This document shows positions 6,275 to 60,500 of a stretch of DNA of 64,000 bases, piece after piece (position 1 is the first letter of the stretch; each line of letters begins with the position of its first letter). Both the position numbers and the translations under genes were made by a program. Origin of the DNA: a virus; the IMG/VR virus record IMGVR_UViG_3300004369_000009, positions 1 to 64,000 of that record. One strand, written 5' to 3'. Below the pieces are notes generated by a model. It did not search any database. It was given only the letters and a program-made list of their open reading frames with translations, and was not told the origin of the DNA.

Positions 6275-6275
6275 C

Positions 6276-24873: not shown

Positions 24874-27800
24874 TTAGAGAATTACCCAGGCACCGCCTGA
24901 GGCGACTTGAATGGTCACGCCACTATTTATAGTGATAGGACCAAAGGATCCACAGGAGTCACCGTTGTTAATGGTGATGCTCTCACCAATGTTGTTACGG
25001 TTTCTCTTGATGATACCATAGGAGTCAAGATACTGCTTGTCTCCACCTGCTCTGAGAACAGTAGACTTTTGACCACTGGAGAGTGCTTCAGAAGCGTTAA
25101 TGTTCAGTCCATTATCGCCAGTGACCTGAACTCTGTAACTAGACTGAATACTATCGCTACCTGGCTCGTGGAAGTGGCATCTACCACCTTCATCCCAAGA
25201 AGCAAAGGTCTGGTCACTATCATTTCTGAAGAAGAAGTCATTACCAGTTCTGATGTATGTATGAGAGTTATTGGAGAAGTAGAATCTAGGTTGACCACCA
25301 GCATCATTGATCCAGGTATTGACTTGGCTAGACAGGTAAGGCAGGTTGTTTGCCTGATAACCATCCAGCAGGTCAGCGTTCAGGTTAGAACATACTGTAG
25401 TGGAATCTACGTTGAAAGGAGAAGTACCAGTAGCAATGCGGGAACGAATCTGACCGAAGAAGTGAACGGTAGAATCGTTATAGCGGTACTTCATGACACG
25501 AGTGTCAGTACCATTATCTCTTCTGTAGAAGGTGATGTCGTCACCAGCCTCAGAACCGAACGAGGCAGGAGAGTTGTCACCGTTGTAGGCAATACCACCG
25601 CCATAAACGCTGTCCTGACCAACGTACAGGTAACCAGTACCTTGGCTGTTGCCGTATGCTTCAAAACCTGCCTGGTTGCTATCGCCTGCGAGTGCGCGGA
25701 CGAAGGTGTTAGCAGATCTACTTGTAGTACCAAAGACAGCATTACCAGTAGAAGTCAGACTTTGAGCTGGGTTGCTATCGCCAATACCAATTCTATCATT
25801 ACGGAAGTAGATTGTACCGTAGGACAGGTGAGTTCCATTGAATCCAAGGCTCTTACCATCACTACCAAACTGGACGTAACCAGAGTTGGTGTCCTGTCTA
25901 CCTCTGATGGACAGGTTGTTAGTGCCTGCCTTACCAAGGTTGATACCGTTGCCATCAGCAAGTTGAAGGATCGATTCACCAGTATTGGCGAAGATACCCT
26001 GGTCAGCGGTGATGTCCGAAACAAAGATATTGCTGCTAGCGTCTCTACGAACCAGAGCATTGGCAGTGTTAGTAGCGCTCTGGATGTAACCATCAACATA
26101 GTGTGCGTCCAACTGAGAGGAAGCACCGTCATTGCCAGAGTGCCATACGGTGTTGCCGTTCAGGGTAAAGGAACTGGTCTTGAGTTCGAGAACACCTTGA
26201 CCGTCCTGTGCGGTACCGCCACTAACTTCAAATCTTACATCATAGTCAGCAGCCAGAGCGCCAGATCTAAAATCAATGGTTGGGGTGGCAACAACGTTAG
26301 TTCTACCGATCTCAAGCAAAGCACCGTTAGCGGTGTTGCTTATAGCGAACACTTGACTTGCGCCAGTGGTCAGCAAGTTGGAAGAAGTAACAGTCCACTT
26401 GGTACCAGGGTTAGGACCAAAGACCTTGATATCTTTATTACTAAAGGCACCAACAAAGTTAATTGTACCTTTGACTAACGTGTAGACAGATCCAGTAGTT
26501 GAATCATTTACTTCAGTGATACCATTAGCAAGAACGGTAATTGTACCGATGTTGTTAACAGCGGCTTCATCGGAGTAGATGGTATAGACTCCGTTGTTAG
26601 ACAAGTTACCAACGGGAGCAGTACCAGTAGAAGCGAAGTAGTCAGGGATATAAAGTTCATAAGTTTCACTGGAAGCAACCAGATAGAGGTTGTCAGCAAA
26701 ATACTTATTGCGACCCAGGAGTTCGGGCAGAGCAGTATCACCAATGACACCATTTGTTCTCTGATCATTAATGTTGTAACCAGACTGGAACCAGAGACCT
26801 TGCTTACCGTCAAGGTAATCAGCGTCTGGACCAGGGAGAGTGCCACGACGAGGATCGTTAGGATCAGGAGCACCATCATTCTCAGAATGCCAAACCTTCG
26901 CCCACTGACCGTAAACCGTACCAGTGTCAGAGTTGCCTCTAAGGTACAGGTTGTCGGTGGCAGAGAAAGCCACCTGAGCAACGGAGTTACCAGTGGCAGA
27001 TCTACGGAAGGTCATGATACCCGCTCTGGTACCACCCGCATCGGTAGGAATACCAGTTACGGAGTTAGATCTCAGAGCAAGCTGAGTACCTACGTTAGCA
27101 GCGCTAACCAGGGAAGCGTTAGCGGAGGATGGAGCAGTTGTCTCGCAGAACAGAGTGTTTGCGTAGTCTGCTGTACCAGAGATCGAGATGTTGTAGGTGG
27201 TGTTTGCCAGACGCTGAGGATCAAGGATACCCTCAACGAGGTTAGTGGCATTCTGATAGAAGGAACCTTCGTTACCATCCAGTTTGTCAGCGTTCAGTTT
27301 AGAACCAGGACCCTGGTCAATGGTAACTTCACCAGCAGTAGTGATAACGAAACCACCGAGGTCTTGGTTAGCCAGTGCTTGCTCAGAAGCGGGCTTACGG
27401 TACTTAGCGATACCATAGTTACCGAAGACAGAACCACCAGCCTGAAGGGTTGTTGGGGTAAGGTTGTTTGCCTTGAGAAGGTCAATCGAAGCATTACCGT
27501 AGTAACGAGAAAGTGTACCCTTAACAGCAGTCAAACTACCTGCTACAGCTGGCTGACCCAGTTCGCTAGGAACAGTCAGAGTAAAGTTTGAGTTATATCC
27601 AGTACCAGGAGTAACAACAGAAACACTGGAGATGGCACCGAATATTGTGCTAGAAGTCAGAGTAGATACAGTTAAGGTTACACCCTGCTGAACAGTACCA
27701 CCGAAGAGTGGACCATCAAATTCGAGAGTATCCCCACCACTGTAACCAGAACCACCATCCAGGATGATGTCAACCGCAATGTCACCGACGGAATCAGTAA

Positions 27801-30800
27801 TGAATCTAATCTGAACACCAAGACCAGCACCATCAGTGTTGGACGCGGCTACATCAAATGTAGAGTTGGGAGTATAAGATCCAGGAACAAAGTTGAGATT
27901 ACTTACGCTGTCAATGATACCGCCAGTTACAACGTCAGAGACTGTGTATGTCGCACGGGCGACCCCAGCTTCAGAGATTTGAACATTACCACCGACCATC
28001 GGGATGTTCTGGTATGTACCAACGGTATATCCAGAACCAGGATTAATGATATCAACTCTTTCAATATAGCTATTATCCTGAATTGAAGATTCACCAACCA
28101 GAACATCATCTGTAGTAAATTTAATCGACTGAACAGCATACTGGAAGGAAGCATCACCTCTAAGGAAGGTAAACGAGTTAGCGATGCCAGTATCAGCCAA
28201 GCGCTGTGGGTCAATAACACCAGCAACGATGTTAGAAGCATCAATGTTAGTGGAGGACAACTGAGTCCAGTTTTGAGCGTTACTAGCAGATGTATTAACA
28301 ACTCTGGTAATATCAACAATTCTCTTTCTGTTGTAGTTACCAGAAGTCAGAAGTGCTGTTTGAGCAACAACTGTATATTCATTTGCGTTGACAATGCTGT
28401 CAATAGCGTAGAATCCACTGGTCGAAGAACCAGAGGTGAACTCCAGGTATACAGTATCACCTTGGCTAAATCCGTGATTGGTTTCAGTAACTGTGATATC
28501 GAAGGTATCGTGGGTATAGACACCACTTACTACAGTTAGGTTTGCTTCGTCAAGAAGGAAGTCAATATCAGAGAGTTTGATATTGTTGGCAAGATCGACA
28601 GTAAGTCTGGCTTCAATTCTAGCAGCATTGCCCTGAGCAGTAGCAGTTGTACCGCCCGTAGGAGCGCCAGTGAAGGAAACTGTAGGTGGGGTGTAGTAAC
28701 CACTACCAGGATTAGTAATGGTGACAGATGCTACCTGACCATTAGTGATGGTACAAGTAGCAGTCGCTTGAGTACCACTGGGAGGAGCACCGATAGTAAT
28801 ACCAGGAGCTGTAGCGTATCCAGAACCAGGATCATCAATCAGAATGTCTCTTACAACACCACCTTCGTAGTTAGTGACGATTACCTGAGCAGTGGTCTGA
28901 GATCCAACAAGTAGAGAATTGTTGTTGAATACGTACTGACTGTTTGGAGTAAACGCAGCAAACATCGTATCAAGGTCATTCTCCAGAATGTAGGAGATGG
29001 CAGCACCCTCTGTACGGAGGACATGAGTACCAGTACCTTGAGATGTCAGGTTTCTTTCTGTACCTGACTGAGCATCAGAAAGTGATGTAGCAAGTTTGAT
29101 GTAGTCGGTGGTGTTAGCACCAACGGCATGTTGAATTACATAGTAGTTGGCACCATCAGCCAAGTTACCGATGTTAGAGGTGCCTTGGAAATATGTCAGG
29201 ATATCACCAGTATTCAAACCGTGAGATGGAATGGTGATGACGTTGTTGACAATATCGACGCTAGATGGAGCAACTTGGAAAGAAGTCGAAGTTGTTTCAA
29301 TAGCGATGTCACCAGCGCTGGCATCTTCAATCGCGAGACGCTCAGCGGTAGATGTAACCGATGTGATATTGAAAGGACGCAGAGCGGGGATCTGTTCAAT
29401 GTTGATCTTACCGCTAGTAGTCAACTGAACCAGAGCGCTAGGAACAGCGTTGGTTGAGTATGGTTGGTTCAGATAAGGACCAAGTTTATTGGTGATGTAG
29501 TCCTTAACAGCAGCCTGTGTAGGCAGCAAGGAGTCAGAAGCAAAAGCACCACCCAGTTCATCACTATCAGAGAAACCAGTAACGGTGATAGAGCCACCAA
29601 CGATCTTAATCGAAGACAGTTCGGAGATACTAACAGTACCAACGAAGCTGATACTACCAGTTCTGTTGAAGATAGTAACGAAGTCACCAACCTTAAAGTC
29701 ACCAAATTCATTAGTACCAGAGGTGTAGACCTGACCGTATGCTTCCTCAACGGCTTCGTTAGCAGGGATACCAACGCCACCGTTTTGAGGCAGAGCGTTG
29801 TAGGTATCACCAGCACCAACATATTCCCAGGTGTGGGAGGAGGAGTTACAGATCGAAGGTCTGTGGAGTCTGATGACAGCATTGTTCAGCAGATCCAGGT
29901 TACCATTCTGGAACGATACGTTTGTACCGTCAGAAGTTCTGATCAGATCGAGACCGAGACCATCGTTAGTAGTAATGTTAGCGGTGATCTGAGTACCAAT
30001 AGAACCCGACAGTTTCTCAGTGCCGAGAATAAAGTATTCCTTGGATGGATCGGTATTTGTAAATCCATCAAACTTGATGATATAATCTTCAACGGGGAAG
30101 TTGGTCATAGGACCACCAACCTCAATGATCTGACGACCAGTCTGAGCACCGTTATTATCTGTCTGGTTTCTGACCTGAGTTACAGTACCAACGTCAAACT
30201 CATAAGCCTCAGTACGGTAACCAGTTGCCTTCAGAGCACGAGTACCAAAGTTAGAAGCAGAGTTAGTCAGAGAAGCATAACCACCAGACTGTACGACAAC
30301 ACCGTCGCCACCAAAGATGACGAAGACCGACACCAACTGGGTGTAACCATCGTTCAGAATGTTATATCCAACACCGCCGTTGACCGAGATGATCGTAAAG
30401 GCGTTGGCAACCATTGACTTGCCCTGAGGTGGGAAAGTAGGACGCTCAATACCGTTACCATCGAGGAACACACCAGGACGGGGAACGTTTGGTTGAGCAA
30501 CCTTAGCACCATCAATTTCAGCACCAGACGCACCCAAGAACGAAATCAGCGATGCGTTCTGGATGTAAGGAGATGCCTCAATGACAGGAAGGTCAAGGTT
30601 ATCAGAGAGCATTGGAACTCTCTTAAGACCGCTATCATCTCTCAGCAAGGAGCTTGGCTCGGTAAGAGTTACGCCAGAGAGTGATGTGCCAGCAGTTGTA
30701 AGCGCATCATCCAGGATTGTATACAGACCTGTCAGGACGTTGATGGAAGCACCACACTCAGGTTGGTTGCTATCAACTGTAGTAGATGCGTTATGGAATG

Positions 30801-33800
30801 GAGCAATACCACTGAAATTGCCTTGAGGGAGTTGGTTGCGAATAGCAAGGATCGACATATCCTTCGCCTTTTCGTATACCTCACGAGTCTGAGGTACCTC
30901 ATTGGTAACATAATTGATGCTAGTACCCTGAAGGTATTTCTGTGCGGCTTCAATAGTCTTAGAGTTGCCGCCATAACGCATATCGTACATCCAAGAACGG
31001 AGTACGTGATATACGTCATCGATACACTGCTGATCTCCAACTGGATAGGTTCTGGTAACACCATTCAGGTTACCAGGGGAACCTGTGCTACCGATAGCAC
31101 CAGTAACAATAGCGGTCAGCGATGTGATAGCAGCTGCTGTATCAGAACAGCGGTTTACATAAGAAAGAGTTCTAGTAACCGTCGAGAGGCTATTTGTATC
31201 AACAGCAACCTCAACAATATTCATCAAAGCAGTAAATGCTGCGATGACATTAGCACAGATAGGTAGACCAGTATCTTGAGTAATGGTCAGATCTCTATAC
31301 TGAGTCAGGTTAGTGTATCCACCAACAGAAACAAGTTCATTTTGGAAACACTCAATCGCAATATCTCTGGCTTGACGGAATGCGTAGATGGAATGATTTT
31401 CTTCACCAGCAACATGAGCACCCGTTATATACAGTTCGGCAGCATCATAGGTGAAGTCATTACCACCCATCGCAGTGTTCCAAGAAGTTACTTCCAGGAC
31501 ATTGATGATGTCATCGATACATGCCTGGTTGCCAGTTGGAACAGAGAAAGCAGTAGGAGTTGTCTTGGTGACACCAGACAGGGTGTCATTCTGAATAGCA
31601 TCAGTGACGATGCCAAAGAGAGTATCAATAGTAGACTGTACGTTAGCACAATCAGCAGCACTATAAGCACCACCAGGAGCAGATTGATCGTGGGTAATTG
31701 TAGTATCAAATACCTGATCGAAATCATGGGTACCCAGTTTAGTATGGGTTCTGTTAGTGATGACCAGTTTGGCAATGTCTTTCGCATGGTTCATAATAGC
31801 GATAGACTTTGCTTCCTCACCATCAAGGTGAGGAGTACCAACATAAAGATTAGCAGCATCCCAAACTTGGTTGTTGCTACCATGCTGGACGTTAAAAGCA
31901 ATTGCTCTCAGAACATCAGCAACGTCATCAATACAATCTTGGGGATCACCTGTTGGTGTGGTCAGTGTTGGATCAGCAGCCAACTCAACTTCATATGCCT
32001 CAGCAGCAATGAAATCGACGTTAGCAATAATCAGATCGTGGGCATCCATGTGTCTGGAGTCCACAATCTCATAAGGAATATTCGCCATCATTCTACCGAC
32101 GGCGATTTCAGCAATAAATTGCTTATTCTTATAGATCAGATTACGAGCATCACCGAAGCGATCACCAACGCCAGACTGAGCAGAGTCTGGGCTAATAGTG
32201 AAGTCCTTAATCTGAGTTAGACCATGACTACCTTGAATAGTAATGGTCTCGTTACGCATTGCCTGAATGGCAAGATCTCTAGCTTGTTCAAAGACCTCTA
32301 CCGATTCATCTTCCTCACCTACAACGTGAGCACCTTGAACATAATACTTGGCAGCATCATACACCTGATCGTTACCACCATAGGCAAGGTTGTATGCCAT
32401 TGCTTCCAAGAAGTCAATAGCATCATCAATACATGCCTGGTTTCCAGTTGGAATGCTGAACGTTGGGTTATTGAGAAGCATACGAGCAACTGCTTCTTGA
32501 GCAATCAGTTGCTTGTTAGCCAAGATCATAGAAGTACCATCACCGTTTCTATCTACGGGAGGTACAGAGTTTGGTGTCTGCCAAGGAGCAGGTACAGTGA
32601 TAGTTACTGTGCCAGAATCTGTGCTAGCGGAAGACAGAATGATTGTGAAGGTTCTGTGATCAGCACAATCATCAACAATGTAAGCACCATCTTGAGTAGC
32701 ACCACTAAAGTTGAAAGCGTATGAGCTCTTAGCAAATACGCCATGACCCCTAGGAGCCACAACCGTCATTACATTGCCAACGCAAGTGTAAGAACCAGTT
32801 CTGGAAAAGCTTGTGTTAGTGCCAGCATTGTACTGAGACTTAACATAAGCATAGGATTCCTCAGCAATAAAGTTAAGGTTGTTGTTGATCGTCTCAGCAG
32901 CATCTCTCTGCTTAGCAGACTCTTGGATGCTAGCACCAAACTCTACCTTGTCGAACGCATAGGGAGAGTTCCTCAGCGACATCAAGGCATAGTTAGTAGC
33001 CGAGCAAACCTGCTGGTCACCACTAGGATCCAGAGCTGTAGCGATTCTTGAGCAAGAACCTCTCGTTACAAATTTCAGTGCGTAACCGTCAGCACGCTCA
33101 ATACGATGAGTAATGTACTTACGACCGTTGAAATCGCCAAGGTTATCAAATACCGTAACGTTACCACTTCTAGTAACACTGTCTACGGCTCTCAGGATAA
33201 AGTAAACTTCATTTGTAGAAGAATTATATCTAGCAACACCAGCACCCAAGTTAGATGGGCTGCCCAGATAAGCACCGAAGTCGGACTGGGTTTGAGCCAA
33301 CGTACCATCTTGATACGTCGCAATATGGAAAGACTTATTGATGTGACCAGTGTTTCCAGCATCGTCAAAGACCATGCGTACGCCAACGCCCTTACCACCC
33401 ACAGGACCCAAGGTCTTGAGGTTTGGCCAAAGAACGTTCATTACTGTTGGGTCCGTATTAGAAACGGTAACAGTAATTTGATTAGCAGTTTGAGTATAGG
33501 TAGCGCTAGCACCAGAACCAAAGCTCAGTGCGGTATATGGCATACCATAGATATGAACTTCCTGACCGACTTCATAGTCGTGCCCAACAAAGTTAATACC
33601 CTCAATAACTCTGGAAGCAGCAGTAACTTCCATGATGATGCCATTATACTCTTGCTGAGTGGCAACATCAGTAGTTACAAAAGCAATGTCAATAACGTTG
33701 AGTGCTTTTTCAAAGCGCTGATAACCAATACCTTCAGAAGTCAGAGGCAGAATTACTGGAGCATCTTCACCAGCAATGTTCTTATTAGTAGCATCTGCCT

Positions 33801-35775
33801 GAGTATTAGCCAGTTTGAAATGGTGACTGTCTACTCTATAGATAAAGATCAGGGAGTTCTCATTGAGACCACCAATACCACCTGCTTTAGAAGCACGATA
33901 ATAAACACCATTACCCGTAAAGAGACCATGGTTGGGGAAGTAAATGGTGTCGTCGTTAGTAGAAACCCTACATGTGAATAGGGTGTGCTCATCGCCACTA
34001 CCTTCATCACTTAGGTTTCTAATACCAGTTGTAGTCTGGAGACTTGTGGCATCCAGCCAAGTATCATACAACTCAATAGTATTCTCATTGATAACACGAA
34101 CAAAGTAAGTGGTGTTATCGTTCAGACCCTCAACGGCAGCGCCGCCTTCATTCTGAACTTTATAGATTACCTTGGCACCAGTATACAATCTGTGGAGTGG
34201 GATTGTAATTCTGTTGTCAGTAGTATCAATGACACTATTGAGATCTGTACCATCAAAGCGCAGAGTCTCAGTTTCGGAAGAGATAACGTGCTGATATCTC
34301 TGGTGCTTGATAACCTCAGTCTCAGGTCTCTGAGATTCACGGTCAGAAACGTCAAGGGAGTCAGATGGAGAAGCACCTGTCTTAACGATGTTGGCGTAGA
34401 TGTCAGCATAATACAGTTTTTCAGCCAACAGGAATGTTGACTGGTCATCGCTCATCAGTACCTGAATGGTACCAGAAGAATATGGAGAAGCAGTAGGACC
34501 AGTAAATACTACAGATTCAATGATACCTCTGGAGGAAGACGAACCACCTTCAACGGCATAACCTACAAGAAGTGTAGTGTTATCACCAGTGTGGTTCTCA
34601 AAGGTAATAGCAAAAATGTTACGACCTTGGTTCCCAAGACCAGGAGAGAATGAGAATGGCTCAAGGTCAGGTTCGTAGTAGAGACGCTGTTTGTCGTCAA
34701 ATACGTAAGCGTATTTCCAGGTCCAGTCTGGAGATCCAGTATTGTCAAGGTGATCTCTGAATACAACGCCTGCAGCATACGTCTCGTTGGACGCCTTGAT
34801 CATGTGGCGATCCTGGTTCAGAGGACGCAGAACAACACGACGGAGGTTGTCACCGATCAGTGAGCAGTTGAAAGGCAGAGAGATCGGGTTGTCTTCAACA
34901 TAGTCACCACCAGAACAGATGATGGACACATACTCAGGTACTTCAGTGTCCTGCTGGAGGGAGTAGGCAATCTGTGCTGCCTTCTTAATAGTACGAACTG
35001 GCTTAGCGGCGGAACGACCATCATTGTCGTCGTCACCGATACCAGGAACCGAAGATACGTATACACGACCGCCGTTATCGGCAGTAGCAACGTCATATAC
35101 GAACTTGGTTGTAGCAATTCTATTGTTCTGTGTCTGACGTGGAGGGTTGTCAGCAGTAGGATAGTAGATCGTACCGAAGTCATCTGCGGTAGGATCAGTT
35201 TCCTCAAAGTTGATCAGGTTAGGACCACGCAGATCCAGACCCTTGGTTACAAACTCGTTAGTAACATCCAGGTTTCTGATTTGCGCTGTATCAGAAATGA
35301 TGGATCGAGTAGTTCTGATCTGACCTTCAACGTCGAGGTCAAATTCGGGGTTGGTGTTGTTAATACCAACACGGATGTTTCCAGTAGGACCCTTGTTAAT
35401 AAAGACAGCATCATCTTCGTTGGCACCAATGCCAACGGTGAACGCCATGGAATCAGTGGCGTTAAGAACAAAAGATCTTACAAGACGATAAGAGCAAGAT
35501 GTAGCCGCCTCAATGAAATTCTGACCAGTGCCAAGAATGGTAAAGGTATCATCATCAATTACATTGATGAGATGTTGACCCTCTGGGATAGTTCTAAGAA
35601 GGGCGTCTTCGCCAAACTTAATGTAGACTCTATCCTGATCATTTAATCTATGAGCAATCGAAGTAACAGTGACGATACCATTAGCTCTACCATAAGTGGC
35701 GGAAGTCCAGGGACCCTGTGGGACTAGACCACTACCTTCAAGTCTCTGTTGTGAAGAATTAAGGCGTAAGCTCAT
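24874..35775 (-). CDS. Giant tail-fibre/structural protein (3633 aa)
   Basis: Pectin-lyase-like beta-helix halves (DDDNDGRS..KPVRTIKKA; SPYIQN...KSMVANAFT...GYTQLVSVF), four nested helical Cys-containing domains, GSGY beta repeats, (D/N)ADxLDG and VWHSxNDG fibre-shaft repeats, C-terminal GPITINSGVTIQVASGGAWVIL. Confidence 0.85.
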   Translation of the reverse strand: MSLRLNSSQQRLEGSGLVPQGPWTSATYGRANGIVTVTSIAHRLNDQDRVYIKFGEDALLRTIPEGQHLINVIDDDTFTILGTGQNFIEAATSCSYRLVRSFVLNATDSMAFTVGIGANEDDAVFINKGPTGNIRVGINNTNPEFDLDVEGQIRTTRSIISDTAQIRNLDVTNEFVTKGLDLRGPNLINFEETDPTADDFGTIYYPTADNPPRQTQNNRIATTKFVYDVATADNGGRVYVSSVPGIGDDDNDGRSAAKPVRTIKKAAQIAYSLQQDTEVPEYVSIICSGGDYVEDNPISLPFNCSLIGDNLRRVVLRPLNQDRHMIKASNETYAAGVVFRDHLDNTGSPDWTWKYAYVFDDKQRLYYEPDLEPFSFSPGLGNQGRNIFAITFENHTGDNTTLLVGYAVEGGSSSSRGIIESVVFTGPTASPYSSGTIQVLMSDDQSTFLLAEKLYYADIYANIVKTGASPSDSLDVSDRESQRPETEVIKHQRYQHVISSETETLRFDGTDLNSVIDTTDNRITIPLHRLYTGAKVIYKVQNEGGAAVEGLNDNTTYFVRVINENTIELYDTWLDATSLQTTTGIRNLSDEGSGDEHTLFTCRVSTNDDTIYFPNHGLFTGNGVYYRASKAGGIGGLNENSLIFIYRVDSHHFKLANTQADATNKNIAGEDAPVILPLTSEGIGYQRFEKALNVIDIAFVTTDVATQQEYNGIIMEVTAASRVIEGINFVGHDYEVGQEVHIYGMPYTALSFGSGASATYTQTANQITVTVSNTDPTVMNVLWPNLKTLGPVGGKGVGVRMVFDDAGNTGHINKSFHIATYQDGTLAQTQSDFGAYLGSPSNLGAGVARYNSSTNEVYFILRAVDSVTRSGNVTVFDNLGDFNGRKYITHRIERADGYALKFVTRGSCSRIATALDPSGDQQVCSATNYALMSLRNSPYAFDKVEFGASIQESAKQRDAAETINNNLNFIAEESYAYVKSQYNAGTNTSFSRTGSYTCVGNVMTVVAPRGHGVFAKSSYAFNFSGATQDGAYIVDDCADHRTFTIILSSASTDSGTVTITVPAPWQTPNSVPPVDRNGDGTSMILANKQLIAQEAVARMLLNNPTFSIPTGNQACIDDAIDFLEAMAYNLAYGGNDQVYDAAKYYVQGAHVVGEEDESVEVFEQARDLAIQAMRNETITIQGSHGLTQIKDFTISPDSAQSGVGDRFGDARNLIYKNKQFIAEIAVGRMMANIPYEIVDSRHMDAHDLIIANVDFIAAEAYEVELAADPTLTTPTGDPQDCIDDVADVLRAIAFNVQHGSNNQVWDAANLYVGTPHLDGEEAKSIAIMNHAKDIAKLVITNRTHTKLGTHDFDQVFDTTITHDQSAPGGAYSAADCANVQSTIDTLFGIVTDAIQNDTLSGVTKTTPTAFSVPTGNQACIDDIINVLEVTSWNTAMGGNDFTYDAAELYITGAHVAGEENHSIYAFRQARDIAIECFQNELVSVGGYTNLTQYRDLTITQDTGLPICANVIAAFTALMNIVEVAVDTNSLSTVTRTLSYVNRCSDTAAAITSLTAIVTGAIGSTGSPGNLNGVTRTYPVGDQQCIDDVYHVLRSWMYDMRYGGNSKTIEAAQKYLQGTSINYVTNEVPQTREVYEKAKDMSILAIRNQLPQGNFSGIAPFHNASTTVDSNQPECGASINVLTGLYTILDDALTTAGTSLSGVTLTEPSSLLRDDSGLKRVPMLSDNLDLPVIEASPYIQNASLISFLGASGAEIDGAKVAQPNVPRPGVFLDGNGIERPTFPPQGKSMVANAFTIISVNGGVGYNILNDGYTQLVSVFVIFGGDGVVVQSGGYASLTNSASNFGTRALKATGYRTEAYEFDVGTVTQVRNQTDNNGAQTGRQIIEVGGPMTNFPVEDYIIKFDGFTNTDPSKEYFILGTEKLSGSIGTQITANITTNDGLGLDLIRTSDGTNVSFQNGNLDLLNNAVIRLHRPSICNSSSHTWEYVGAGDTYNALPQNGGVGIPANEAVEEAYGQVYTSGTNEFGDFKVGDFVTIFNRTGSISFVGTVSISELSSIKIVGGSITVTGFSDSDELGGAFASDSLLPTQAAVKDYITNKLGPYLNQPYSTNAVPSALVQLTTSGKINIEQIPALRPFNITSVTSTAERLAIEDASAGDIAIETTSTSFQVAPSSVDIVNNVITIPSHGLNTGDILTYFQGTSNIGNLADGANYYVIQHAVGANTTDYIKLATSLSDAQSGTERNLTSQGTGTHVLRTEGAAISYILENDLDTMFAAFTPNSQYVFNNNSLLVGSQTTAQVIVTNYEGGVVRDILIDDPGSGYATAPGITIGAPPSGTQATATCTITNGQVASVTITNPGSGYYTPPTVSFTGAPTGGTTATAQGNAARIEARLTVDLANNIKLSDIDFLLDEANLTVVSGVYTHDTFDITVTETNHGFSQGDTVYLEFTSGSSTSGFYAIDSIVNANEYTVVAQTALLTSGNYNRKRIVDITRVVNTSASNAQNWTQLSSTNIDASNIVAGVIDPQRLADTGIANSFTFLRGDASFQYAVQSIKFTTDDVLVGESSIQDNSYIERVDIINPGSGYTVGTYQNIPMVGGNVQISEAGVARATYTVSDVVTGGIIDSVSNLNFVPGSYTPNSTFDVAASNTDGAGLGVQIRFITDSVGDIAVDIILDGGSGYSGGDTLEFDGPLFGGTVQQGVTLTVSTLTSSTIFGAISSVSVVTPGTGYNSNFTLTVPSELGQPAVAGSLTAVKGTLSRYYGNASIDLLKANNLTPTTLQAGGSVFGNYGIAKYRKPASEQALANQDLGGFVITTAGEVTIDQGPGSKLNADKLDGNEGSFYQNATNLVEGILDPQRLANTTYNISISGTADYANTLFCETTAPSSANASLVSAANVGTQLALRSNSVTGIPTDAGGTRAGIMTFRRSATGNSVAQVAFSATDNLYLRGNSDTGTVYGQWAKVWHSENDGAPDPNDPRRGTLPGPDADYLDGKQGLWFQSGYNINDQRTNGVIGDTALPELLGRNKYFADNLYLVASSETYELYIPDYFASTGTAPVGNLSNNGVYTIYSDEAAVNNIGTITVLANGITEVNDSTTGSVYTLVKGTINFVGAFSNKDIKVFGPNPGTKWTVTSSNLLTTGASQVFAISNTANGALLEIGRTNVVATPTIDFRSGALAADYDVRFEVSGGTAQDGQGVLELKTSSFTLNGNTVWHSGNDGASSQLDAHYVDGYIQSATNTANALVRRDASSNIFVSDITADQGIFANTGESILQLADGNGINLGKAGTNNLSIRGRQDTNSGYVQFGSDGKSLGFNGTHLSYGTIYFRNDRIGIGDSNPAQSLTSTGNAVFGTTSRSANTFVRALAGDSNQAGFEAYGNSQGTGYLYVGQDSVYGGGIAYNGDNSPASFGSEAGDDITFYRRDNGTDTRVMKYRYNDSTVHFFGQIRSRIATGTSPFNVDSTTVCSNLNADLLDGYQANNLPYLSSQVNTWINDAGGQPRFYFSNNSHTYIRTGNDFFFRNDSDQTFASWDEGGRCHFHEPGSDSIQSSYRVQVTGDNGLNINASEALSSGQKSTVLRAGGDKQYLDSYGIIKRNRNNIGESITINNGDSCGSFGPITINSGVTIQVASGGAWVIL
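24924..24931 (-). promoter_or_regulatory. T4-type late promoter TATAAATA for the adhesin genes
   Basis: Perfect consensus inside the 3' end of the giant fibre gene, about 60 nt upstream of ATG 24865. Confidence 0.7.
30700..32913 (-). repeat. Four nested phycobiliprotein-like helical repeats in the 3633-aa protein
   Basis: D(A/G)xxxIxxNxxxIAxxA/S (x4), CIDD...G(G/S)N (x4), terminal Cys helix (CANV, CANV, CSDT, CGAS); coordinates approximate. Confidence 0.75.
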
Positions 35776-36353: not shown

Positions 36354-36361
36354 TATTTATA
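36354..36361 (-). promoter_or_regulatory. T4-type late promoter TATAAATA
   Basis: Perfect consensus overlapping the upstream stop, about 20 nt before ATG 36333. Confidence 0.8.
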
Positions 36362-43541: not shown

Positions 43542-43689
43542 TTATAGCATTCTCTGGTGAGTTTTTTTCTTGGTTAATACTATTTAACTGGTTAGTTAAA
43601 TCGAGAATTTTCGCTTCCAACATAATGTTACTCAAGGTCAACTCAGAAACTTTACGTTGTAATGTAGCAATAATAATGTTTACATCCAT
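43480..43689 (-). CDS. Small coiled-coil hypothetical protein (69 aa)
   Basis: LQRKVSELTLSNIMLEAKILDL heptads; fills the gap between fibre genes. Confidence 0.75.
   Translation of the reverse strand: MDVNIIIATLQRKVSELTLSNIMLEAKILDLTNQLNSINQEKNSPENAINGNEDQTQKLSNSSGSSNDF
43581..43588 (-). promoter_or_regulatory. Putative late promoter variant (GTTAAATA)
   Basis: About 40 nt upstream of ATG 43541. Confidence 0.45.
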
Positions 43690-43701
43690 GTTAATTTAAT
43701 T

Positions 43702-45949: not shown

Positions 45950-45971
45950 TCGCTAAGGTTTTTCTCTTTAG

Positions 45972-54599: not shown

Positions 54600-57500
54600 T
54601 TATGCGTAGAGTCTAACAATTGGACGGATCTGTAGTGTAGCGCTGGTTTCCTGAAGAGCTACAGTAGAGGTAATTGTAAAGGTTGCGTCACCAGTCTTGG
54701 TAACTTTATATACCCCATTCAAAGAACTATATGACAAAGTACCACCAGAACCAGGAACTGTTCCGCCAGAAGTGAAGAAGATATATCTCTCCATTCCAGT
54801 TTCAAGGTTATGATCACTAGACATAGTTACAGAAATGGTGGTGCCGTTGGCGGTCCAAGTTCCATTTTCAATGTTAATATTGTGTCCAACACCTAGGCTT
54901 GGACCTGTACGCTTGTAACCTCTACCATTAGTTGTAACAACAAAAGTATTAGCGTTATAATCAACTGTTCCGTAAAGAACTCTTTCTACACTCCAATTAG
55001 TACCATTCCAATAAGGAATCATTATTTCACCGTCACTTGGGAAACCTTCACCAGCATCATATCCAAAGTCTTGGCAAGGAATAGTTTGTGCTGTATCTGT
55101 AATAGAAGAAGAAAGAATCGCGGTGTAAAGGAATCTACTATTACTAATGGTCCTATCTCTTTGAGTTCTTTCAACAGCAACTGGGTGGAAAGTTTGTACA
55201 GTTGGAGCATTGACGTAATTAGATCCACCTTGAAGATCAATAACCTCAATGACTTTACCACTACCTTGCTCAATGATAGTTCTAGCGCTAGCGCCAGTAC
55301 CACCACCACCATTAAAGGAGAGGAATGGTGGATATTCATAATTGCCACCAGCATCAATAATATTGACCTTAACTACTTTTCCACCAACAACAACGGCTTC
55401 AAAAGAAGCAACAGATGGTTGGAGACCAGTATATTCATAAGTTTCAATAGAACTTGAAGAAGCAATCTGAGCAAGAATACGATTTTCACCTTCGGAGTCA
55501 ATTCTGAGAAGATCGCCAGGGTCAATACTGTTGTAAGTATCTTCAACTGTGATGTCTAGGTCAGAACCAGTGTAGATGAAGGTCAGACACTCGGCACCTG
55601 CTCGTGGTGCTTCAGTGAATTCAAGAATTGAACCATTCAGAACAAATGATACTTCTGGTTCCTGATAGACACCATTCATGAACATGATAATATTGTTCGC
55701 TGGGATAACGGCAGGAGAATCAGATTCCAGGGAGAATGGCTGATCATTCTTCTTAAGAATGAATGTTTTTCTCTCATTATCAAAGAATGGAGCAATAGGA
55801 TCTAGATCTTTCAACTGACCAACATAGAAGCAGTAGAAATCCATGTTGCCCAGCGGGGCTTCAGTGAAATTGATGGTAGATGGAGTTCCTGTGTAACTGT
55901 AAGAAACACCAAGTTCCTGAATGTGGGAATTAAGAAATAGCAGGAATCTGTCGTTACCTGGCAGAGTATATCCAGTACCACCAACTTTAGCGGGGTACGA
56001 AGTTGTAGTTCCGTCAAAGGTAACGGTCTCAACTTCAATTTGGAAACTGTTGATTACAGTACCGCCAACATCAGCAGCATCAACACCAAGCATATCAGTG
56101 TTAAGGTAATTGCTACCTCCATTTACCAAAGCTACGTCGGTAACCGCACCTGTAACTCTAGCAATTGGATTGGTAGCAGCAGTTGTTGGATTGCCACCAG
56201 TAAATGCCAGAGTAGGTGCTTGATTGTAATCCTTACCTGTTTGTTGAACTTCAAGACGCTCGATAAATCTACCAACAGTGGCAGAAGCCAAAGCAGTTGT
56301 GGTAATAGTATCAGCAGGGTCGTTGATAATTTCAACAACAACATCATCGTAACCATAACCACCGTAAGTAACATTGATTCCAGTAACTGCTCCACCAGAG
56401 ATGGTAGCAGTAGCAGTAGCGTTAAAACCACTATTGGATTTGATCACTACAGTTGGAACATTGTTATAGCCAACGCCAGGTTGGGTTACTGCGATACTCT
56501 TGATGAAACCTTCAGAGGAAAGAACAGCAGAGATTGCGCCATCTGTAACAGCAGTATATCCAGACTGAACAATAGTAGGAGCACCTTCATACCCATCACC
56601 ACACTGACCAACAGTTCTAGTGAAGGTATTGAAGTTGCCCTGACCGATAACGGTGTAGGCAAAATCCATCAAAGTTTCAATCGTAGAGATTACATTTGTA
56701 CAACCTCCAGAAACCGAAGTGATGCTAGGATCCTTGTACTGGCTTCTAGTGCTGAAGTTATACTGCGAATAGGTCTCATAAGTTTCATTGTTAATTGCCT
56801 TCTTGACCATCTGACGTGCTTCTTCAAACACGTATTGGGTCTCGGCTTCTTCACCCTGTACGTGACCACCATTGAAGTACATATCGAGGTTGTCCCACAG
56901 AACGTGGTTACCACCGAATGCTACGTTAACGCCAACGGCACGCAAGATGTCAACAGTGTCAGATTTACACTGTTCATCACCAATACCAGGAGAGTTGAAT
57001 CCAGTAGGAGCAGTTCTAGTAAACGTAGAGAGAGAATCAGTGTCGATCGCAACTTCGATGATATTCATCAGAGTATCAATCGCAGCGGTTACGTTTGTAC
57101 AACCACCAACGACATTAGTAATACTAGAGTCCGTAACCTGAGAAATGCCGTGGGAACCGCGAACGGTAACTGCGGTATTATCAATTACTTCCTTAGCAAT
57201 CTTAGTGGCTTCTCTATAAACGTACTTAGAGTGAATCTCTTCGCCATCCAGATGTGAGGTGCCTACGTAGTAAGCAGCGGCATCATAGATTTCGCTGTTG
57301 GAACCATACTTGACGTTGATAGAAAGCGCTTCCATAACATCAACAACGTCATCGATACAGTTGACATTGCCGTTTGGAACGGTAAAGGCAGCAGGTTCAG
57401 TTCTGGTGGCATGAGTCATCAGATCTGTTTGGATTGCCAATTCGATGATGTCGATCAAAGTGTTGACACCAGAGATGACGTTTGTACAACCACCAGATAC

Positions 57501-60500
57501 GTTGGTGATTCCACTGTCGATCGTCTGGGTGTATCCATGAGAACCAGTGATACTAATTGTCTGGTTATCGATAGCCAGTTCCATCAGTTCTTCAAGTCTG
57601 CCGATAGCAGCAAGAGTTTGTTGCTCTTCGCCATCAATATGGGTTGTGCCAACGTAATAATTGGCGGCATCCCAGACTTGGTTGTTGGCACCATGGAGAA
57701 CGTTAAATGCTACAGCATCTACGATATCCAGGAGGTCATCAATACAATCCTGAGAGTTGCCTGTTGGAGTTACGAATCCAGGGAAATCTACGGTGCTCAT
57801 CAGGTGATAAGCTTCGTATGCTAGCAGGTTTTTGTTAGCGAGGATTGTGTTATATGCGTCAAAGTGTCTGTTGCTTTGAACCTCAAAAGGAATGTCGAGC
57901 AGCATACGCTCAACGGCTTCGTTAGCAATGAAGTTCTTATTGGTTGTAATCAAAGTAGAAGCATCGGCAAAACGATTTGCCTGAGGTGTGCCAAAACGAT
58001 TCATCAAACCAACAGCAACATCAGCAATAAGTCTGGCGTTATTGTTAATCAATACACGAGCATCGCCAAATCTGTCAGCGGTTACATTAGTAGCCGTATC
58101 GAGAACATTGGTAATTGTGATGTTACCAGTAGCTCCAGTGCCATTTCCAATTTTATTTGTAAATGCTACATTATTGTATACGCCAGGAGTGTATCCACTA
58201 CCCTGGTAGATACCATCTGTGGTATTCAGGGAAGTAATAACGTCTCCAAAGATATCCAGCTGGAAGTTGCCGCTGATATCTTGGCGTTGATAATACATGA
58301 TAATACAGACCGAATCCTTAATCGGTGGCTCGGAGAAGGTGAGGGTGCTTCCACTTAGACTATACGAAACTGGGTTCTGTACAATACCGTTGATGGTTAC
58401 CATCAACTGATTTTTGTTTAGAGGTGTTATCTCAGTATCTCTGAATCTCAACTGATAATCAACAGTTTCATCATCAAAGGCAACGGTCAATTTGTGCTTA
58501 ATGCCTGTGGAAACTCCCGTCAGTGGAACTGCGGTACCAGCAGTAGCATTGGCTTTGGTTGTTGCCAATTTGAGATTATCATCATCAACTCTGATGATGT
58601 AGTAATCAGTATTAGCATCCAAACCACCAATGGGAACAGAGTTGGCAATTTCAGGATAATATCCTGGGTTGCGCTCTGGAACGCTGGATGGATTGTCAAT
58701 ACCACCCCATACAATCTCAGCAAGAGTGTCAATAGTATTCTTGACATCTGTACAACCGTTAGTATCCAGAGTGATAGTAATATCAGTTACTGGGAGTTGG
58801 TTTACAATCGCCTGCTTAGCCAGATCTCTGGCATATTGAATAGCACCGATTGTTTCCTCTTCTTCGCCACCAATATAATATACACTATTGTTAGGTACAG
58901 TTCTGGTAAGACTACCAAATGGACCATTAGCACCAGAATCAACAGCATCCGTAAGGATTGTCATGAGGCTAGTGATACTACTAGCGACATTCTGACAGGA
59001 AGCTACATAACCACCTGTCTTTTCAGTTCTATTCTCTACAAGGTGCGAAAGTGGTGCGGTGATGGCAGCAGTTACAATGTCCATCAGAGTAGTGATGGCA
59101 GAAACTTGATCCGCACACTTGACGTATGAAGGATCATCAGCGGGGGCAGTGTCATCTGTAATCGTCAGATCAAAGACTTGACCAGACATGTCACCGACTG
59201 GCTTATTCTGAATTACCAGAATCGCAATATCTCTTGCTTGCTCAAAAGCATAGATCGATTCAGTTTCTTCGCCAAGGATGTGAGTTCCAGTTACATAGTA
59301 GTTCGCAGCATCCCAGATTTCGTCGTTTCCACCACGAGACATATTCTCAGCAAGTGCTTCGAGAACATCTACGATGTCATCTTCGCAATTAACTCTACCG
59401 TTTGGTACAGAGAATGTTGGGAAGTTGGACAGCATTCTGTCTACAGCAGTTACCGCAATCTGAGTCTTATTAGAGAGAATGAGATTTCTGGCATCAGCAT
59501 GTCTATCACTAATGTAACCAGCAGGATCTTTAGTGATAGTGTTATCGAATACTTGAGTTTGGCTGGTATACTGTGGATTGATTGGATAATTTTGCATGGC
59601 TTGAATTGCCATGTCTCTAGCGTGGTTGAATACCTCAATAGTTTGGGTTTCTTCCCCAGATACGTGTGCTCCTGTGATATACAGGTTAGCAGCATCATAT
59701 ACTTCGCTGTTTCCGCCGAATGACAGGTTATAAGCCAAAGCCTCAAGGATATCGATAACATCATCGATACAATCTTGATTATTACCAGTAGGAACAGTAA
59801 ATGCGATATTATTTGGATCAGCAAGCATTCTACCGACTGCTTCTTCAGCAATCAGTACCTTGTTATCGAGGATGCTCTGTCTAGCATTGGCATAGCGATT
59901 GCCAATGGTACCAACACCACCAATGTATTCTTGTACAGCATCCCAGGTAAATGCGTTTCCACCATAACGGAGGTCATTAACCCATGCTACGACAACCAAT
60001 CTAAGGTCACGAGCACATATAGTTCTATCGTAATCTGGTTTGGATCCATCGGTTAGAGCTGGATAATTTGCTTCTAGCCATACAATAGACTGATCAATAA
60101 TATAGTCAATGTTCTTAAGAATTAGGTCTCTAGCATCTTGATATCTGTCAGCAGGGGCAGAGTAATTTGCTTTCTGACCAGTAATAAATCCATGGTTAGT
60201 GAGAGCAAGAGTGTCACTAGCATCTAGAACTACAGCTGGATCTGTGCCATCAAATGTGTAAGTTTTAGATTCGATTTTATCTAGTTTGTTTACAATGGCA
60301 CTAAGAATTCTCTGGACGTCCAGAAGTTGCTTACCTTGAACAAGAACATTTGTAGGCACTGAAGACGTGTAGTCTGGCTTGCCCATAAAGTAGTTCTGAA
60401 TCCTAGAAAGCTTACCAGCATTGGAAGCAGAGGGTTTTGGCGTAAAGAATGTAGTTCCATTGAAGGACTGGAATTCATTACCAAACCTTTGAGCATACCA

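What the first reader, a model, noticed from the sequence alone, without database searches (positions are those of the whole stretch)
30700..32913. Four more copies of the same phycobiliprotein-like domain in the 3633-aa fibre
Seen: the best copy, DGTSMILANKQLIAQEAVARMLLNNPTFSIPTGNQA-CIDDAIDFLEAMAYNLAYGG, matches the recalled phycocyanin beta register at D1, I6, N9, I13, A17, P26, P31, G33 and N34 (the PGGN Asn methylated in beta subunits), and at C1, D4, L9, Y14 and G19. All four copies have both Cys, giving 20 of 20 Cys across the two proteins, which are otherwise Cys-poor. Inference: a mobile decoration module shared by two unrelated tail proteins about 25 kb apart, under selection to keep the thiols, and displayed in many copies per virion.
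Basis: partly seen in the sequence, partly recalled or inferred. Interest (0 to 1): 0.82.

Follow-up and report, generated by a model that had tools for sequence, protein, structure and literature searches.

The report
Phycobiliprotein-like domains in cyanophage baseplate proteins
Two giant tail/baseplate proteins of a marine cyanobacterial virus carry tandem copies of a domain that is a true, distant relative of the host's light-harvesting phycobiliproteins and keeps their pigment-attachment residues, so the virus particle itself may carry pigment.

Summary
The 3633-aa ORF (24874-35775, minus strand) has four tandem copies of an all-helical unit of about 130-165 aa. The neighbouring gp7-like ORF has five full copies and at least one partial copy.

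The phycobiliprotein (PBP) resemblance is real homology:
- A 43-unit profile gave 76 PDB hits; the best 60 shown are all PBPs or a PBP derivative (best E 6.5e-6).
- hhalign against 199 cyanobacterial PBPs gave probability 95%, E 2.6e-8.
- AlphaFold models superpose on phycoerythrin beta residues 32-184 (Z 14.6 and 15.8, rmsd 2.4 A).

The unit is a PBP globin core without the N-terminal X-Y hairpin. Across 579 copies from 150 related giant proteins, the Cys is kept in 99%, the Asp in 99% and the Arg in 84%. This is the CxRD bilin-binding motif. The window's copies are a CxDD subtype.

By tblastn, the matching records among 50,697 phage records were almost all cyanomyoviruses. No copies beyond the hosts' own PBPs were found in 301 cyanobacterial genomes, and none in 301 genomes of another phylum.

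Bilin binding is inferred, not shown. Pfam already flags PF00502 on 75 of 120 listed homologues, but ten searches found no paper discussing it.

The parts
24874..35775 (-). 3633-aa giant structural protein (short-tail-fibre / tail-fibre-like, at the gp11/gp12 place of the baseplate module) that holds the four copies
   Evidence: PHROG phrog_5342 tail fiber and phrog_4527 short tail fiber; whole-protein Pfam PF00502 E 1.4e-4, 22.3 bits against a cut-off of 22.2
32824..32913 (-). orphan B-type helix (residues about 955-984), a weak partial copy
   Evidence: A2 profile positions 3-32, E 2.7e-4; domain 954-1006, E 0.045
32164..32559 (-). copy 1 (residues 1073-1204): helices B, E, F', G; motif C1115-I-D-D at 32431-32433; the 'best copy' of the finding
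   Evidence: AlphaFold model of 1074-1238, pLDDT 83; CpeB Z 14.6
32062..32163 (-). extra B-type helix (residues 1205-1238) that the model places as the last (H-like) helix of copy 1
   Evidence: E 5.5e-4; model helix 135-152 lies within the range aligned to CpeB 32-184
31573..32061 (-). copy 2 (residues 1239-1401): complete B-E-F'-G-H unit; Cys1281 (31933-31935) at the beta-Cys82 place; Cys1376 (31648-31650) directly before the H helix, at the beta-Cys153 place
   Evidence: model residues 1-157 on CpeB 32-184, Z 15.8, rmsd 2.4 A over 144 aa
31162..31656 (-). copy 3 (residues 1374-1538): has no B helix of its own and starts from the Cys-helix it shares with copy 2; Cys1419 (31519-31521); trailing Cys-helix from Cys1507 (31255-31257)
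   Evidence: secondary structure of the two-unit model
30661..31161 (-). copy 4 (residues 1539-1705): Cys-helix from Cys1543 (31147-31149), Cys1584 (31024-31026), trailing Cys-helix from Cys1674 (30754-30756); the most divergent copy
   Evidence: long end branch in the tree
54600..63998 (-). gp7-like giant baseplate protein (runs off the window; open frame 4447 aa in the source record) that holds the other copies
   Evidence: homologues annotated 'gp7: baseplate wedge initiator' in P-HM1 and P-HM2; the next gene, 52981-54504, is a baseplate wedge subunit, phrog_438
59907..60152 (-). partial copy F0 with the canonical motif C-A-R-D
   Evidence: E 1.7e-19
59052..59906 (-). copies F1 and F2
   Evidence: E 1.2e-43 and 8.8e-45
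58695..58883 (-). partial copy (G-H part only)
   Evidence: E 4.2e-8, profile positions 77-149
56616..57977 (-). orphan helix plus copies F3, F4 and F5
   Evidence: E 1.5e-44, 1.3e-37, 6.7e-32; orphan helix 2.2e-5. In the tree F3 pairs with copy 2 (SH-aLRT 96), and F4/F5 with copy 3 (99)

Best explanation
Shown. The repeats are a virus-specific branch of the phycobiliprotein / bilin-binding-globin family. Each unit is the PBP globin core (helices B, E, F', G, H; PBP residues about 32-184) without the N-terminal X-Y hairpin that PBPs use to form alpha-beta pairs. Units are strung in tandem inside giant baseplate-attached proteins of T4-like cyanophages. Neighbouring units can share a helix.

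Inferred. The three residues that make the PBP chromophore site (Cys82, Arg84, Asp85 in CpcB numbering, the CxRD motif) are the most conserved positions of the whole family. The window-type subfamily also keeps a Cys at the place of beta-Cys153. The domain therefore most likely still holds a linear tetrapyrrole, thioether-linked to the Cys, taken from the infected cell's bilin pool, possibly helped by phage-encoded bilin enzymes. Parts of the baseplate or fibres would then be biliprotein.

The four copies in this window are a derived C-I-D-D subtype (Arg replaced by Asp). Their ligand contacts, if any, must differ from the canonical ones.

My odds: homology about 0.9; covalent bilin in at least the CxRD-type copies about 0.45; in the window's CxDD copies lower.
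For: Sequence
- Pfam PF00502 is the only recurrent family. Whole protein: E 1.4e-4, 22.3 bits against a cut-off of 22.2. Six of 43 single units hit at E <= 0.01, best 3.4e-5; one other family was hit, by one unit.
- The profile of the 10 window copies against PDB gave 27 hits, 25 of them PBPs, best E 0.0026.
- The profile of 43 diverse units gave 76 hits. The best 60 shown are all PBPs or the PBP derivative smURFP, best E 6.5e-6, and some alignments span CpeB 33-183.
- hhalign of the 43 units against 199 alpha+beta PBPs from cyanobacterial loci: probability 95.2, E 2.6e-8, 104 columns, with Cys on Cys82, Arg on Arg84 and Asp on Asp85. Against beta subunits only: probability 79, E 1.5e-5.
- Reciprocal test. 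The phage profile run on 301 cyanobacterial genomes hit 16 genomes, each at E 1e-4 to 1e-3, in frames of 176-216 aa. Three of three checked are PF00502 at E <= 1e-20. It hit 0 of 301 genomes of the phylum of a MAG titled Rhizobium.

Fold
- AlphaFold2 without templates: pLDDT 83.0 and 83.3.
- All Foldseek PDB rows listed to rank 50 are PBP beta-type chains or one PBP-like 'bacterial fluorescent protein' (8u0f); TM 0.54-0.62, best E 2.1e-3.
- VIA-align: CpeB 5aqd_M Z 14.6 (rmsd 2.4 A, 142 aa) and Z 15.8 (2.4 A, 144 aa). Next come allophycocyanin, the ApcE bilin domain and other PBPs at Z 10.8-14.3. Interleaved with them or below are an RsbR stressosome globin (11.2), photocobilins (10.2-10.8) and haem globin sensors.

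Site
- In 579 near-full copies from the 150 best library proteins plus this one: Cys 99%, Asp 99%, Arg 84%. By motif: CxRD 485, CxDD 59, CxED 10, others 25. Mean column identity of the 43-unit alignment is 26%.
- Rockwell et al. 2023 (PMC10151467, passages read) state that CXRD is the PBP chromophore motif. They also show that BBAG globins carrying it attach bilins without lyases.
- The second Cys lies directly before the helix that superposes on PBP helix H. It aligns in register with 'GDC153' of CpcB: 6 of 21 identities, ungapped.

Distribution
- tblastn of the four copies against 50,697 phage records gave 354 records: 353 named Synechococcus, Prochlorococcus or Cyanophage, and 1 'Marine'.
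- A single CxRD unit gave 133 records: 132 so named, plus 1 'Marine'.
Against: - No chromophore evidence of any kind. Nothing here shows a pigment, and I know of no report of coloured cyanophage particles (recalled, not searched as such).
- The window's four copies have Asp where PBPs have the propionate-binding Arg.
- The family lacks the roughly 7 residues that precede the Cys in PBPs, and it lacks the X-Y hairpin.
- Single units score below Pfam's cut-off: 15-17 bits against 22.2.
- Foldseek E-values stay above 1e-3.
- For helical models Z up to about 13-14 can arise from common arrangements (tool notes), and non-bilin globins reach Z 9-11.
- The Cys-helix alone does not match PBP helix H significantly: E 0.16, probability 0.4%.
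- Up to 34 matched stretches per protein looks more like a length-building structural repeat than a sensor.
- All carriers belong to one viral lineage, so 'cyanophage-restricted' cannot be separated from common descent.
- tblastn would miss very distant copies in other phages.
Confidence: 0.45

Rival explanations
1. Apo structural module. A phycobiliprotein-derived helical domain was kept only as a rigid building block that sets the length and shape of baseplate fibres. It binds no chromophore. The conserved Cys/Arg/Asp, GGN and Tyr serve folding or inter-unit packing.
For: Tandem arrays with up to 34 matched stretches per protein and variable spacing, 100-170 aa, mode about 160. Units share helices, and some lack helix B. 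Several PBP site elements are lost: the X-Y hairpin, the 7 residues before the Cys, and Arg in the window's copies. Other strongly conserved positions are phage-specific: Asp +14 from the Cys 91%, GGN 82/82/90%, Tyr 92%.
Against: A domain freed from its ligand should not keep exactly the three chromophore-site residues at 99/84/99% while the rest drifts to about 26% identity. Cys is otherwise rare in these proteins, 0.3-1.3%.
Confidence: 0.4
2. The pocket binds another ligand (haem, another tetrapyrrole, a metal or a host surface molecule), so the domain acts as a receptor-binding or sensing module unrelated to bilins.
For: Globin-coupled haem sensors, RsbR and photocobilin globins also superpose at Z 9-11. 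The CxDD subtype replaces the propionate-binding Arg by an acid.
Against: The sequence profile hits PBPs almost exclusively (25 of 27 hits; all of the best 60) and no haem globins. The proximal-His signature of haem globins was not looked for and is not among the conserved columns.
Confidence: 0.1
3. Chance resemblance: an unrelated helical repeat that merely looks like a phycobiliprotein.
For: Single-unit scores are weak: E 0.0076-0.5. Helical folds give inflated structural scores (notes).
Against: Four partly independent lines agree on the same register: HMM against PDB (E 6.5e-6), hhalign (E 2.6e-8), reciprocal genome scans (16/301 against 0/301), and the fold (Z 14.6-15.8 over the whole unit).
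Confidence: 0.03

Closest known systems
Phycobiliprotein beta subunits (CpeB, CpcB; Pfam PF00502)
   Same: Globin-like core with helices B to H. The Cys-x-(Arg)-Asp motif is in the same register at Cys82. A second Cys sits directly before helix H, as beta-Cys153 does. These are the best sequence and fold matches.
   Different: No X-Y hairpin, so no alpha-beta pairing as in PBPs. About 7 residues shorter before the Cys. It is not a free protein of about 170 aa but a tandem domain in proteins of 1,000 to 7,000 aa. It sits in virion baseplate proteins, not phycobilisomes. It forms a separate clade on a long branch. The window's copies have Asp for Arg.
ApcE (core-membrane linker) bilin-binding PBP domain
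   Same: A PBP-type domain embedded in a large multidomain polypeptide. Z 12.0-13.7 to 4xxi_A. From established knowledge (recalled), ApcE attaches its bilin without a separate lyase, a precedent for self-attachment.
   Different: One domain per protein, inside the phycobilisome. Its attachment Cys is at another position (recalled). No tandem arrays.
BBAGs (bilin biosynthesis-associated globins; Rockwell et al. 2023, PMC10151467)
   Same: Distant PBP paralogues outside phycobilisomes. BBAG-1 and BBAG-3 carry CXRD and self-assemble with bilins (passages read).
   Different: Small free proteins of heterotrophic bacteria and some cyanobacteria, next to HO/FDBR genes. I had no BBAG sequences, so the relation to the phage clade is untested. 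That paper's text mentions phages only for PcyX/PcyA. Its supplements could not be seen.
Photoglobins / photocobilins (8j2y, 8j2w) and RsbR-type sensor globins
   Same: Same globin-like fold, Z 10-11. These are light or signal sensors.
   Different: No sequence-level match. Different ligand chemistry. Not in virions.
Cyanobacteriochrome-like GAF folds in cyanophages (PMC12481020, 2025)
   Same: Another proposal, from structure prediction only, that a cyanophage encodes a possible bilin-binding photoreceptor-type domain (passages read).
   Different: A GAF fold, not a globin. A small protein of a siphovirus, not a structural array in myovirus baseplates.

Membership tests
Phycobiliprotein (PF00502) | Significant match to the family's sequence model | tested here: inconclusive
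   Whole 3633-aa protein: 22.3 bits against a gathering score of 22.2, E 1.4e-4. Single units: 15-17 bits, below the cut-off. Profile-based tests are significant: E 6.5e-6 against PDB, and hhalign E 2.6e-8, probability 95%. Of 120 listed homologues, 75 carry a precomputed PF00502 hit.
Phycobiliprotein (PF00502) | Globin-like core fold (helices B, E, F', F, G, H) | tested here: met
   Models superpose on CpeB 32-184: Z 14.6 (rmsd 2.4 A, 142 aa) and Z 15.8 (2.4 A, 144 aa). All Foldseek rows listed to rank 50 are PBPs or one PBP-like protein.
Phycobiliprotein (PF00502) | N-terminal X-Y helix hairpin that builds the alpha-beta monomer | tested here: not met
   All alignments start at PBP residue 31-35. 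The unit begins with the helix-B equivalent, and the preceding sequence is the previous unit.
Phycobiliprotein (PF00502) | CxRD chromophore motif at the Cys82/84 position | tested here: inconclusive
   Family-wide it is met: 485 of 579 copies are CxRD, with Cys 99% and Asp 99%. The four copies of this finding are C-I-D-D, so Cys and Asp are kept and Arg is not. One partial copy in the other protein is C-A-R-D.
Phycobiliprotein (PF00502) | Covalently bound bilin | not testable with these tools
   Needs spectroscopy or mass spectrometry.
Phycobiliprotein (PF00502) | Free subunit of about 160-185 aa assembling into (alpha-beta)3 discs of a phycobilisome | tested here: not met
   It occurs as tandem domains in proteins of 1,070-6,982 aa; three short library entries of 166-304 aa may be fragments. 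It is encoded in a T4-like baseplate module.
BBAG (bilin biosynthesis-associated globins) | Free globin with or without CXRD, encoded next to haem oxygenase / FDBR genes | not tested
The neighbours here are structural genes.
T4-like cyanomyovirus giant structural proteins (PHROG 5342 / 4527 / 701 / 18802) | Full-length similarity to annotated cyanophage tail-fibre / virion structural proteins | tested here: met
   phrog_5342 E 0 (2313 bits), phrog_4527 E 7.4e-94. tblastn hit 354 phage records, 192 of them covering at least 80% of the four-copy query.

The most novel reading that the evidence does not exclude
Cyanomyovirus particles are biliproteins. The PBP-like arrays in gp7-like and fibre proteins are chromophorylated in the infected cell, using host or phage-made bilins (ho1, pebS, pcyA). 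The second Cys, at the beta-153 place, would be served by the phage's own T-type lyase CpeT. The pigment would act as the virion's light sensor, gating baseplate or fibre conformation.

This would explain two long-standing puzzles at once:
- Why phages of Prochlorococcus, which lacks phycobilisomes, carry bilin-synthesis genes. Sullivan et al. 2010 (PMC3037559) call this 'a mystery'.
- Why adsorption of S-PM2, P-HM1 and P-HM2 needs light independently of host photosynthesis. Light-sensitive tail fibres have been suggested, but no photoreceptor is known (PMC6628666).
Probability: 0.15. Interest if true: 0.95.

Novelty: new variant of a known kind. Interest (0 to 1): 0.8.

Why it matters
Phycobiliproteins are known as soluble antenna subunits of cyanobacteria and algae. 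Here the same fold, with the pigment-site residues intact, is a mass-produced building block of virus baseplate proteins: 969 library proteins at E <= 0.001, with up to 34 matched stretches each.

If the units bind bilin, this would be the first pigmented phage structural protein that I know of. It would give a concrete molecular candidate for light-dependent adsorption of cyanophages, and a substrate for the unexplained phage bilin genes and CpeT.

If they do not, it is still a clear case of a host-type light-harvesting fold turned into a virion structural repeat, and a source of small hairpin-less PBP scaffolds.

The bench test is simple and cheap.

Tried and rejected
I used the genome search and a DNA-pattern scan instead.
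- Gasper et al. 2017 on phage CpeT is not held. What I say about it is recalled or taken from a review.
- unintentionally repeated. The MAG titled Chitinophaga (L041) drew the same phylum sample as the Synechococcus genome.
- CpeT (PF06206) was not found in the 73.6-kb source record. That record is about 40% complete, so this says nothing.
- The ESM Atlas gave only unnamed viral clusters at 0.79-0.82, which is uninformative.
- The Cys-helix alone against PBP beta aligns in register but is not significant.
- The tree has no outgroup and no allophycocyanin, ApcE or BBAG rows. It cannot say whether the phage clade is sister to all PBPs or a fast-evolving offshoot of beta.
- Disulfide reading of the two Cys: I could not measure distances in the models. 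By the PBP superposition they sit at the places of two separate chromophore sites, which argues against a disulfide but is inference.
- A genome-by-genome test of cpeT against the Cys-helix subtype was considered and dropped as too costly and probably uninformative.
- P0040 also hit one Pelagibacter and one Ralstonia phage record. I did not check which part matched. The single-domain query hit neither.
- Ten literature searches found no paper on a PBP-like domain in cyanophage structural proteins. Subscription journals and supplements were not searchable.

Full report
WHAT IS THERE

The window is the baseplate-neck module of a T4-like cyanomyovirus.
- DNA and protein searches of the region hit only Synechococcus, Prochlorococcus or 'Cyanophage' records, apart from one 'Marine' record in the protein search.
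- Neighbouring genes match tail sheath stabilizer, head closure Hc2, head-tail adaptor Ad2 and baseplate wedge subunits.
- The source is a 73,656-base IMG/VR record, estimated 40% complete.

The finding lies in the 3633-aa ORF 24874..35775 on the minus strand. Its PHROG matches are 'tail fiber protein' and 'short tail fiber protein'.

THE REPEATS

An HMM built from the motif-centred segments finds four strong copies in this protein: residues 1074-1226, 1239-1390, 1374-1523 and 1540-1691. It also finds five strong and several partial copies in the ORF 54600..63998.

A profile made mostly from units of other proteins (A2, 43 rows) recovers the same places in the six-frame DNA at E 6.8e-47 to 1.6e-32, plus orphan helices.

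The second ORF runs off the window and has a 4447-aa open frame in the source record. Its homologues in P-HM1 and P-HM2 are annotated gp7, baseplate wedge initiator.

Outside the arrays the two proteins share only short weak matches: E 2e-4 to 7e-6 over 52-104 aa.

In a tree of units, copies pair by position across the two proteins. Copy 2 pairs with F3 (SH-aLRT 96). Copy 3 pairs with F4/F5 (99). Copy 1 sits nearest F1 and F2 (group support 88, unresolved). This points to a block of units that was duplicated or exchanged between the two genes.

IS IT PHYCOBILIPROTEIN-LIKE? Yes.

(a) Pfam's Phycobilisome model (PF00502) is the only family that recurs.
- Whole protein: E 1.4e-4, 22.3 bits against a cut-off of 22.2.
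- Six of 43 single units hit at E <= 0.01, best 3.4e-5. One other family was hit, by one unit.

(b) Against all PDB sequences:
- The raw 738-aa region has only two hits at E <= 10, both PBP beta chains, E 0.47-0.5.
- The profile of the 10 window copies gives 27 hits, 25 of them PBPs, best E 0.0026. The other two are LipJ and an aminotransferase.
- The 43-unit profile gives 76 hits. The best 60 shown are all PBPs or smURFP, best E 6.5e-6, with alignments up to CpeB 33-183.

(c) I fetched real PBP genes from cyanobacterial genomes with a motif scan and extracted 98 beta and 101 alpha sequences.
- hhalign of the 43 units against all 199: probability 95.2%, E 2.6e-8, 104 columns.
- Against beta only: probability 79%, E 1.5e-5.

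(d) Reciprocal scan with the phage profile.
- In 301 cyanobacterial genomes it finds only weak hits (E 1e-4 to 1e-3) in 16 genomes, in 176-216-aa frames. Three of three checked are PF00502 at E 1e-20 to 1e-46.
- In 301 genomes of the phylum of a MAG titled Rhizobium it finds nothing.

(e) Fold.
- AlphaFold2 without templates gives pLDDT 83.0 for residues 1074-1238 and 83.3 for 1239-1540.
- All Foldseek PDB rows listed to rank 50 are PBP beta-type chains or one PBP-like 'bacterial fluorescent protein': TM 0.54-0.62, best E 2.1e-3, so none reaches 1e-3.
- VIA-align over 48,161 representative chains ranks Phormidium phycoerythrin beta first. Z 14.6 (rmsd 2.4 A, 142 aa, model 1-153 on chain 32-184) and Z 15.8 (2.4 A, 144 aa).
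- Next come allophycocyanin, the ApcE bilin domain and other PBPs at Z 10.8-14.3. Interleaved with them or below are an RsbR stressosome globin (11.2), photocobilins (10.2-10.8) and haem globin sensors.
- The tool warns that helical models can reach Z 13-14 by common arrangement. The fold evidence therefore counts mainly because it agrees in register with the sequence evidence.

ANATOMY OF A UNIT

- A full unit, for example residues 1239-1401, has five helices that superpose on PBP helices B, E, F', G and H.
- There is no X-Y hairpin. All alignments begin at PBP residue 31-35.
- About 7 residues before the Cys are missing relative to PBPs.
- Copy 3 has no helix B of its own. It begins at the Cys-helix that serves as helix H of copy 2. 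The units are therefore interlocked rather than beads on a string. Inter-unit geometry is uncertain (pTM 0.60).

THE WIDER FAMILY

The exhaustive profile search found 969 library proteins at E <= 0.001, of which 231 at <= 1e-30. The best 150 are 166-6,982 aa long, with up to 34 matched stretches. Spacing between successive copies is mostly 100-170 aa, with a mode near 160.

In 579 near-full copies the most conserved columns are Cys (99%), Asp three residues on (99%) and Arg between them (84%). By motif: CxRD 485, CxDD 59, CxED 10, others 25. hhalign puts these residues on Cys82, Arg84 and Asp85 of CpcB.

Rockwell et al. 2023 (PMC10151467, passages read) describe CXRD as the chromophore motif. 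The Cys makes the thioether, and the other two residues hydrogen-bond the bilin. They also show that BBAG globins with this motif attach bilins without lyases.

Other conserved positions are phage-specific: an Asp 14 residues after the Cys (91%), GGN (82/82/90%) and a Tyr (92%).

The four copies of the finding are all C-I-D-D. One partial copy in the gp7-like protein is C-A-R-D.

A second Cys directly precedes the last helix in the window-type subfamily, ten instances in the two proteins. It aligns ungapped with 'GDC153 + helix H' of CpcB at 6 of 21 identities, and in register in hhalign. On its own that is not significant: E 0.16.

According to a review (PMC10452541, passages read), position beta-153 is served by T-type lyases (CpcT/CpeT). 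The same review reports cpeT in 31 of 153 cyanophage genomes, myoviruses only.

DISTRIBUTION

- tblastn of the four copies: 354 of 50,697 phage records, 353 named Synechococcus, Prochlorococcus or Cyanophage, plus 1 'Marine'.
- tblastn of one CxRD unit: 133 records, 132 so named, plus 1 'Marine'.
- A whole 2048-aa relative: 423 records, including one Pelagibacter and one Ralstonia phage. I did not check which part matched those two.
- Of ten library proteins looked up, one cluster carried an organism name, Cyanophage S-RIM50. The rest come from metagenomes.
- No strong phage-type copy was found in the 301 cyanobacterial genomes searched.

All listed carriers with a listed genome size are myovirus-sized, 144-252 kb. 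The restriction to cyanophages is therefore confounded with descent from one viral lineage.

In the tree, the 43 phage units form one clade (SH-aLRT 99) on a long branch. That clade lies outside the rod alpha clade and the beta clade, not nested in beta. The tree is unrooted and has no allophycocyanin or BBAG rows.

HOW IT MOST LIKELY WORKS

Shown:
- Homology and fold.
- Conservation of the chromophore-site residues.
- Tandem, interlocked arrangement in baseplate-attached proteins.

Inferred:
- The units still bind a bilin covalently at the conserved Cys. I put this at about 0.45 for the CxRD type, and lower for the window's CxDD copies, whose Arg-to-Asp change would alter contact with the propionates.

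Speculative:
- The pigment makes the baseplate or fibres light-responsive.

Two literature points make this worth testing:
- The role of phage bilin-synthesis genes 'remains a mystery', especially in phages of Prochlorococcus (PMC3037559, passages read; PMC2984593).

The main rival, at about 0.4, is that the domain is now a pigment-free structural repeat. Large copy numbers, shared helices and lost PBP elements favour that reading. The 99/84/99% conservation of exactly the site residues against roughly 26% overall identity argues against it.

IS IT KNOWN?

Automated Pfam annotation already marks PF00502 on 75 of the 120 listed homologues, so the signal is in the databases.

Ten full-text searches found no paper that mentions a phycobiliprotein-like domain in cyanophage structural proteins.

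The closest idea in print is a 2025 report of cyanobacteriochrome-like GAF folds in cyanosiphoviruses, also untested (PMC12481020, passages read).

Supplementary files and subscription journals could not be searched. The notes of earlier agents were closed.

VERDICT

- The phycobiliprotein homology is well supported.
- Pigment binding and any light function remain hypotheses with a cheap decisive test.
- I file it as a new variant of a known kind: a virion-borne, hairpin-less, tandemly arrayed branch of the bilin-binding globins.

Noticed in passing
window 54600-63998 (-), continuing beyond the window end: The gp7-like ORF is cut by the window. In the source record its open frame is 4447 aa. 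One of its partial units (59907-60152) has the canonical C-A-R-D motif, whereas all full units in the window are CxDD, CxED or CxSD.
   Followed up: partly
window 30661-32559 against 56616-59906: Units pair by position between the two proteins in the tree: copy 2 with F3, copy 3 with F4/F5, and copy 1 nearest F1/F2. This suggests that a block of units was duplicated or exchanged between the two genes, rather than amplified independently.
   Followed up: partly
window 31573-31656 (residues 1374-1401) and 31162-31257: One Cys-bearing helix is claimed by two neighbouring units: as helix H of the unit before and as helix B of the unit after. Copy 3 has no B helix of its own. Two such helices lie in tandem between copies 3 and 4.
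   Followed up: partly
window 5267-8413 and 36357-54504 (-): The gene order is a T4-like baseplate-neck module: tail sheath stabilizer (5267-6274), head closure Hc2 (6276-7607), adaptor Ad2 (7604-8413), a 2394-aa baseplate wedge protein (36357-43541) and a gp8-like wedge subunit (52981-54504). Between them lie a 2226-aa protein (46300-52980, phrog_358) and a 562-aa protein (43702-45390, phrog_15769), both of unknown function.
   Followed up: partly
window 8415-13559 (-): A 1714-aa protein combining a protease-like stretch (phrog_3677, residues 243-567) with repeated 'head protein' / virion-protein-like stretches (phrog_613, five stretches) and a tail-protein-like part (phrog_3995).
   Followed up: no
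window 24907-33981 (+), e.g. 24907-26478, 29464-30417, 31276-32220: Many long open frames (150-520 aa) lie antisense to the giant genes. They are probably by-products of the codon usage of the sense strand, not genes.
   Followed up: no
L041, L021, L007 (genome-contig loci): Contigs of MAGs titled Chitinophaga, Rhizobium and Tatlockia carry the phycocyanin-beta motif. At least L007 encodes a 174-aa beta and a 162-aa alpha subunit. The 'Chitinophaga' genome drew the same phylum sample as a Synechococcus genome. These are probably mis-binned or mislabelled cyanobacterial DNA.
   Followed up: partly
homologues P0211, P0212, P0242-P0250, P0280 and others: Some relatives of the fibre carry other precomputed domains beside or instead of PF00502: PF14240, PF23786, PF21471, PF13884 and PF02839. 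The PBP-like array is therefore combined with varied distal modules.
   Followed up: no
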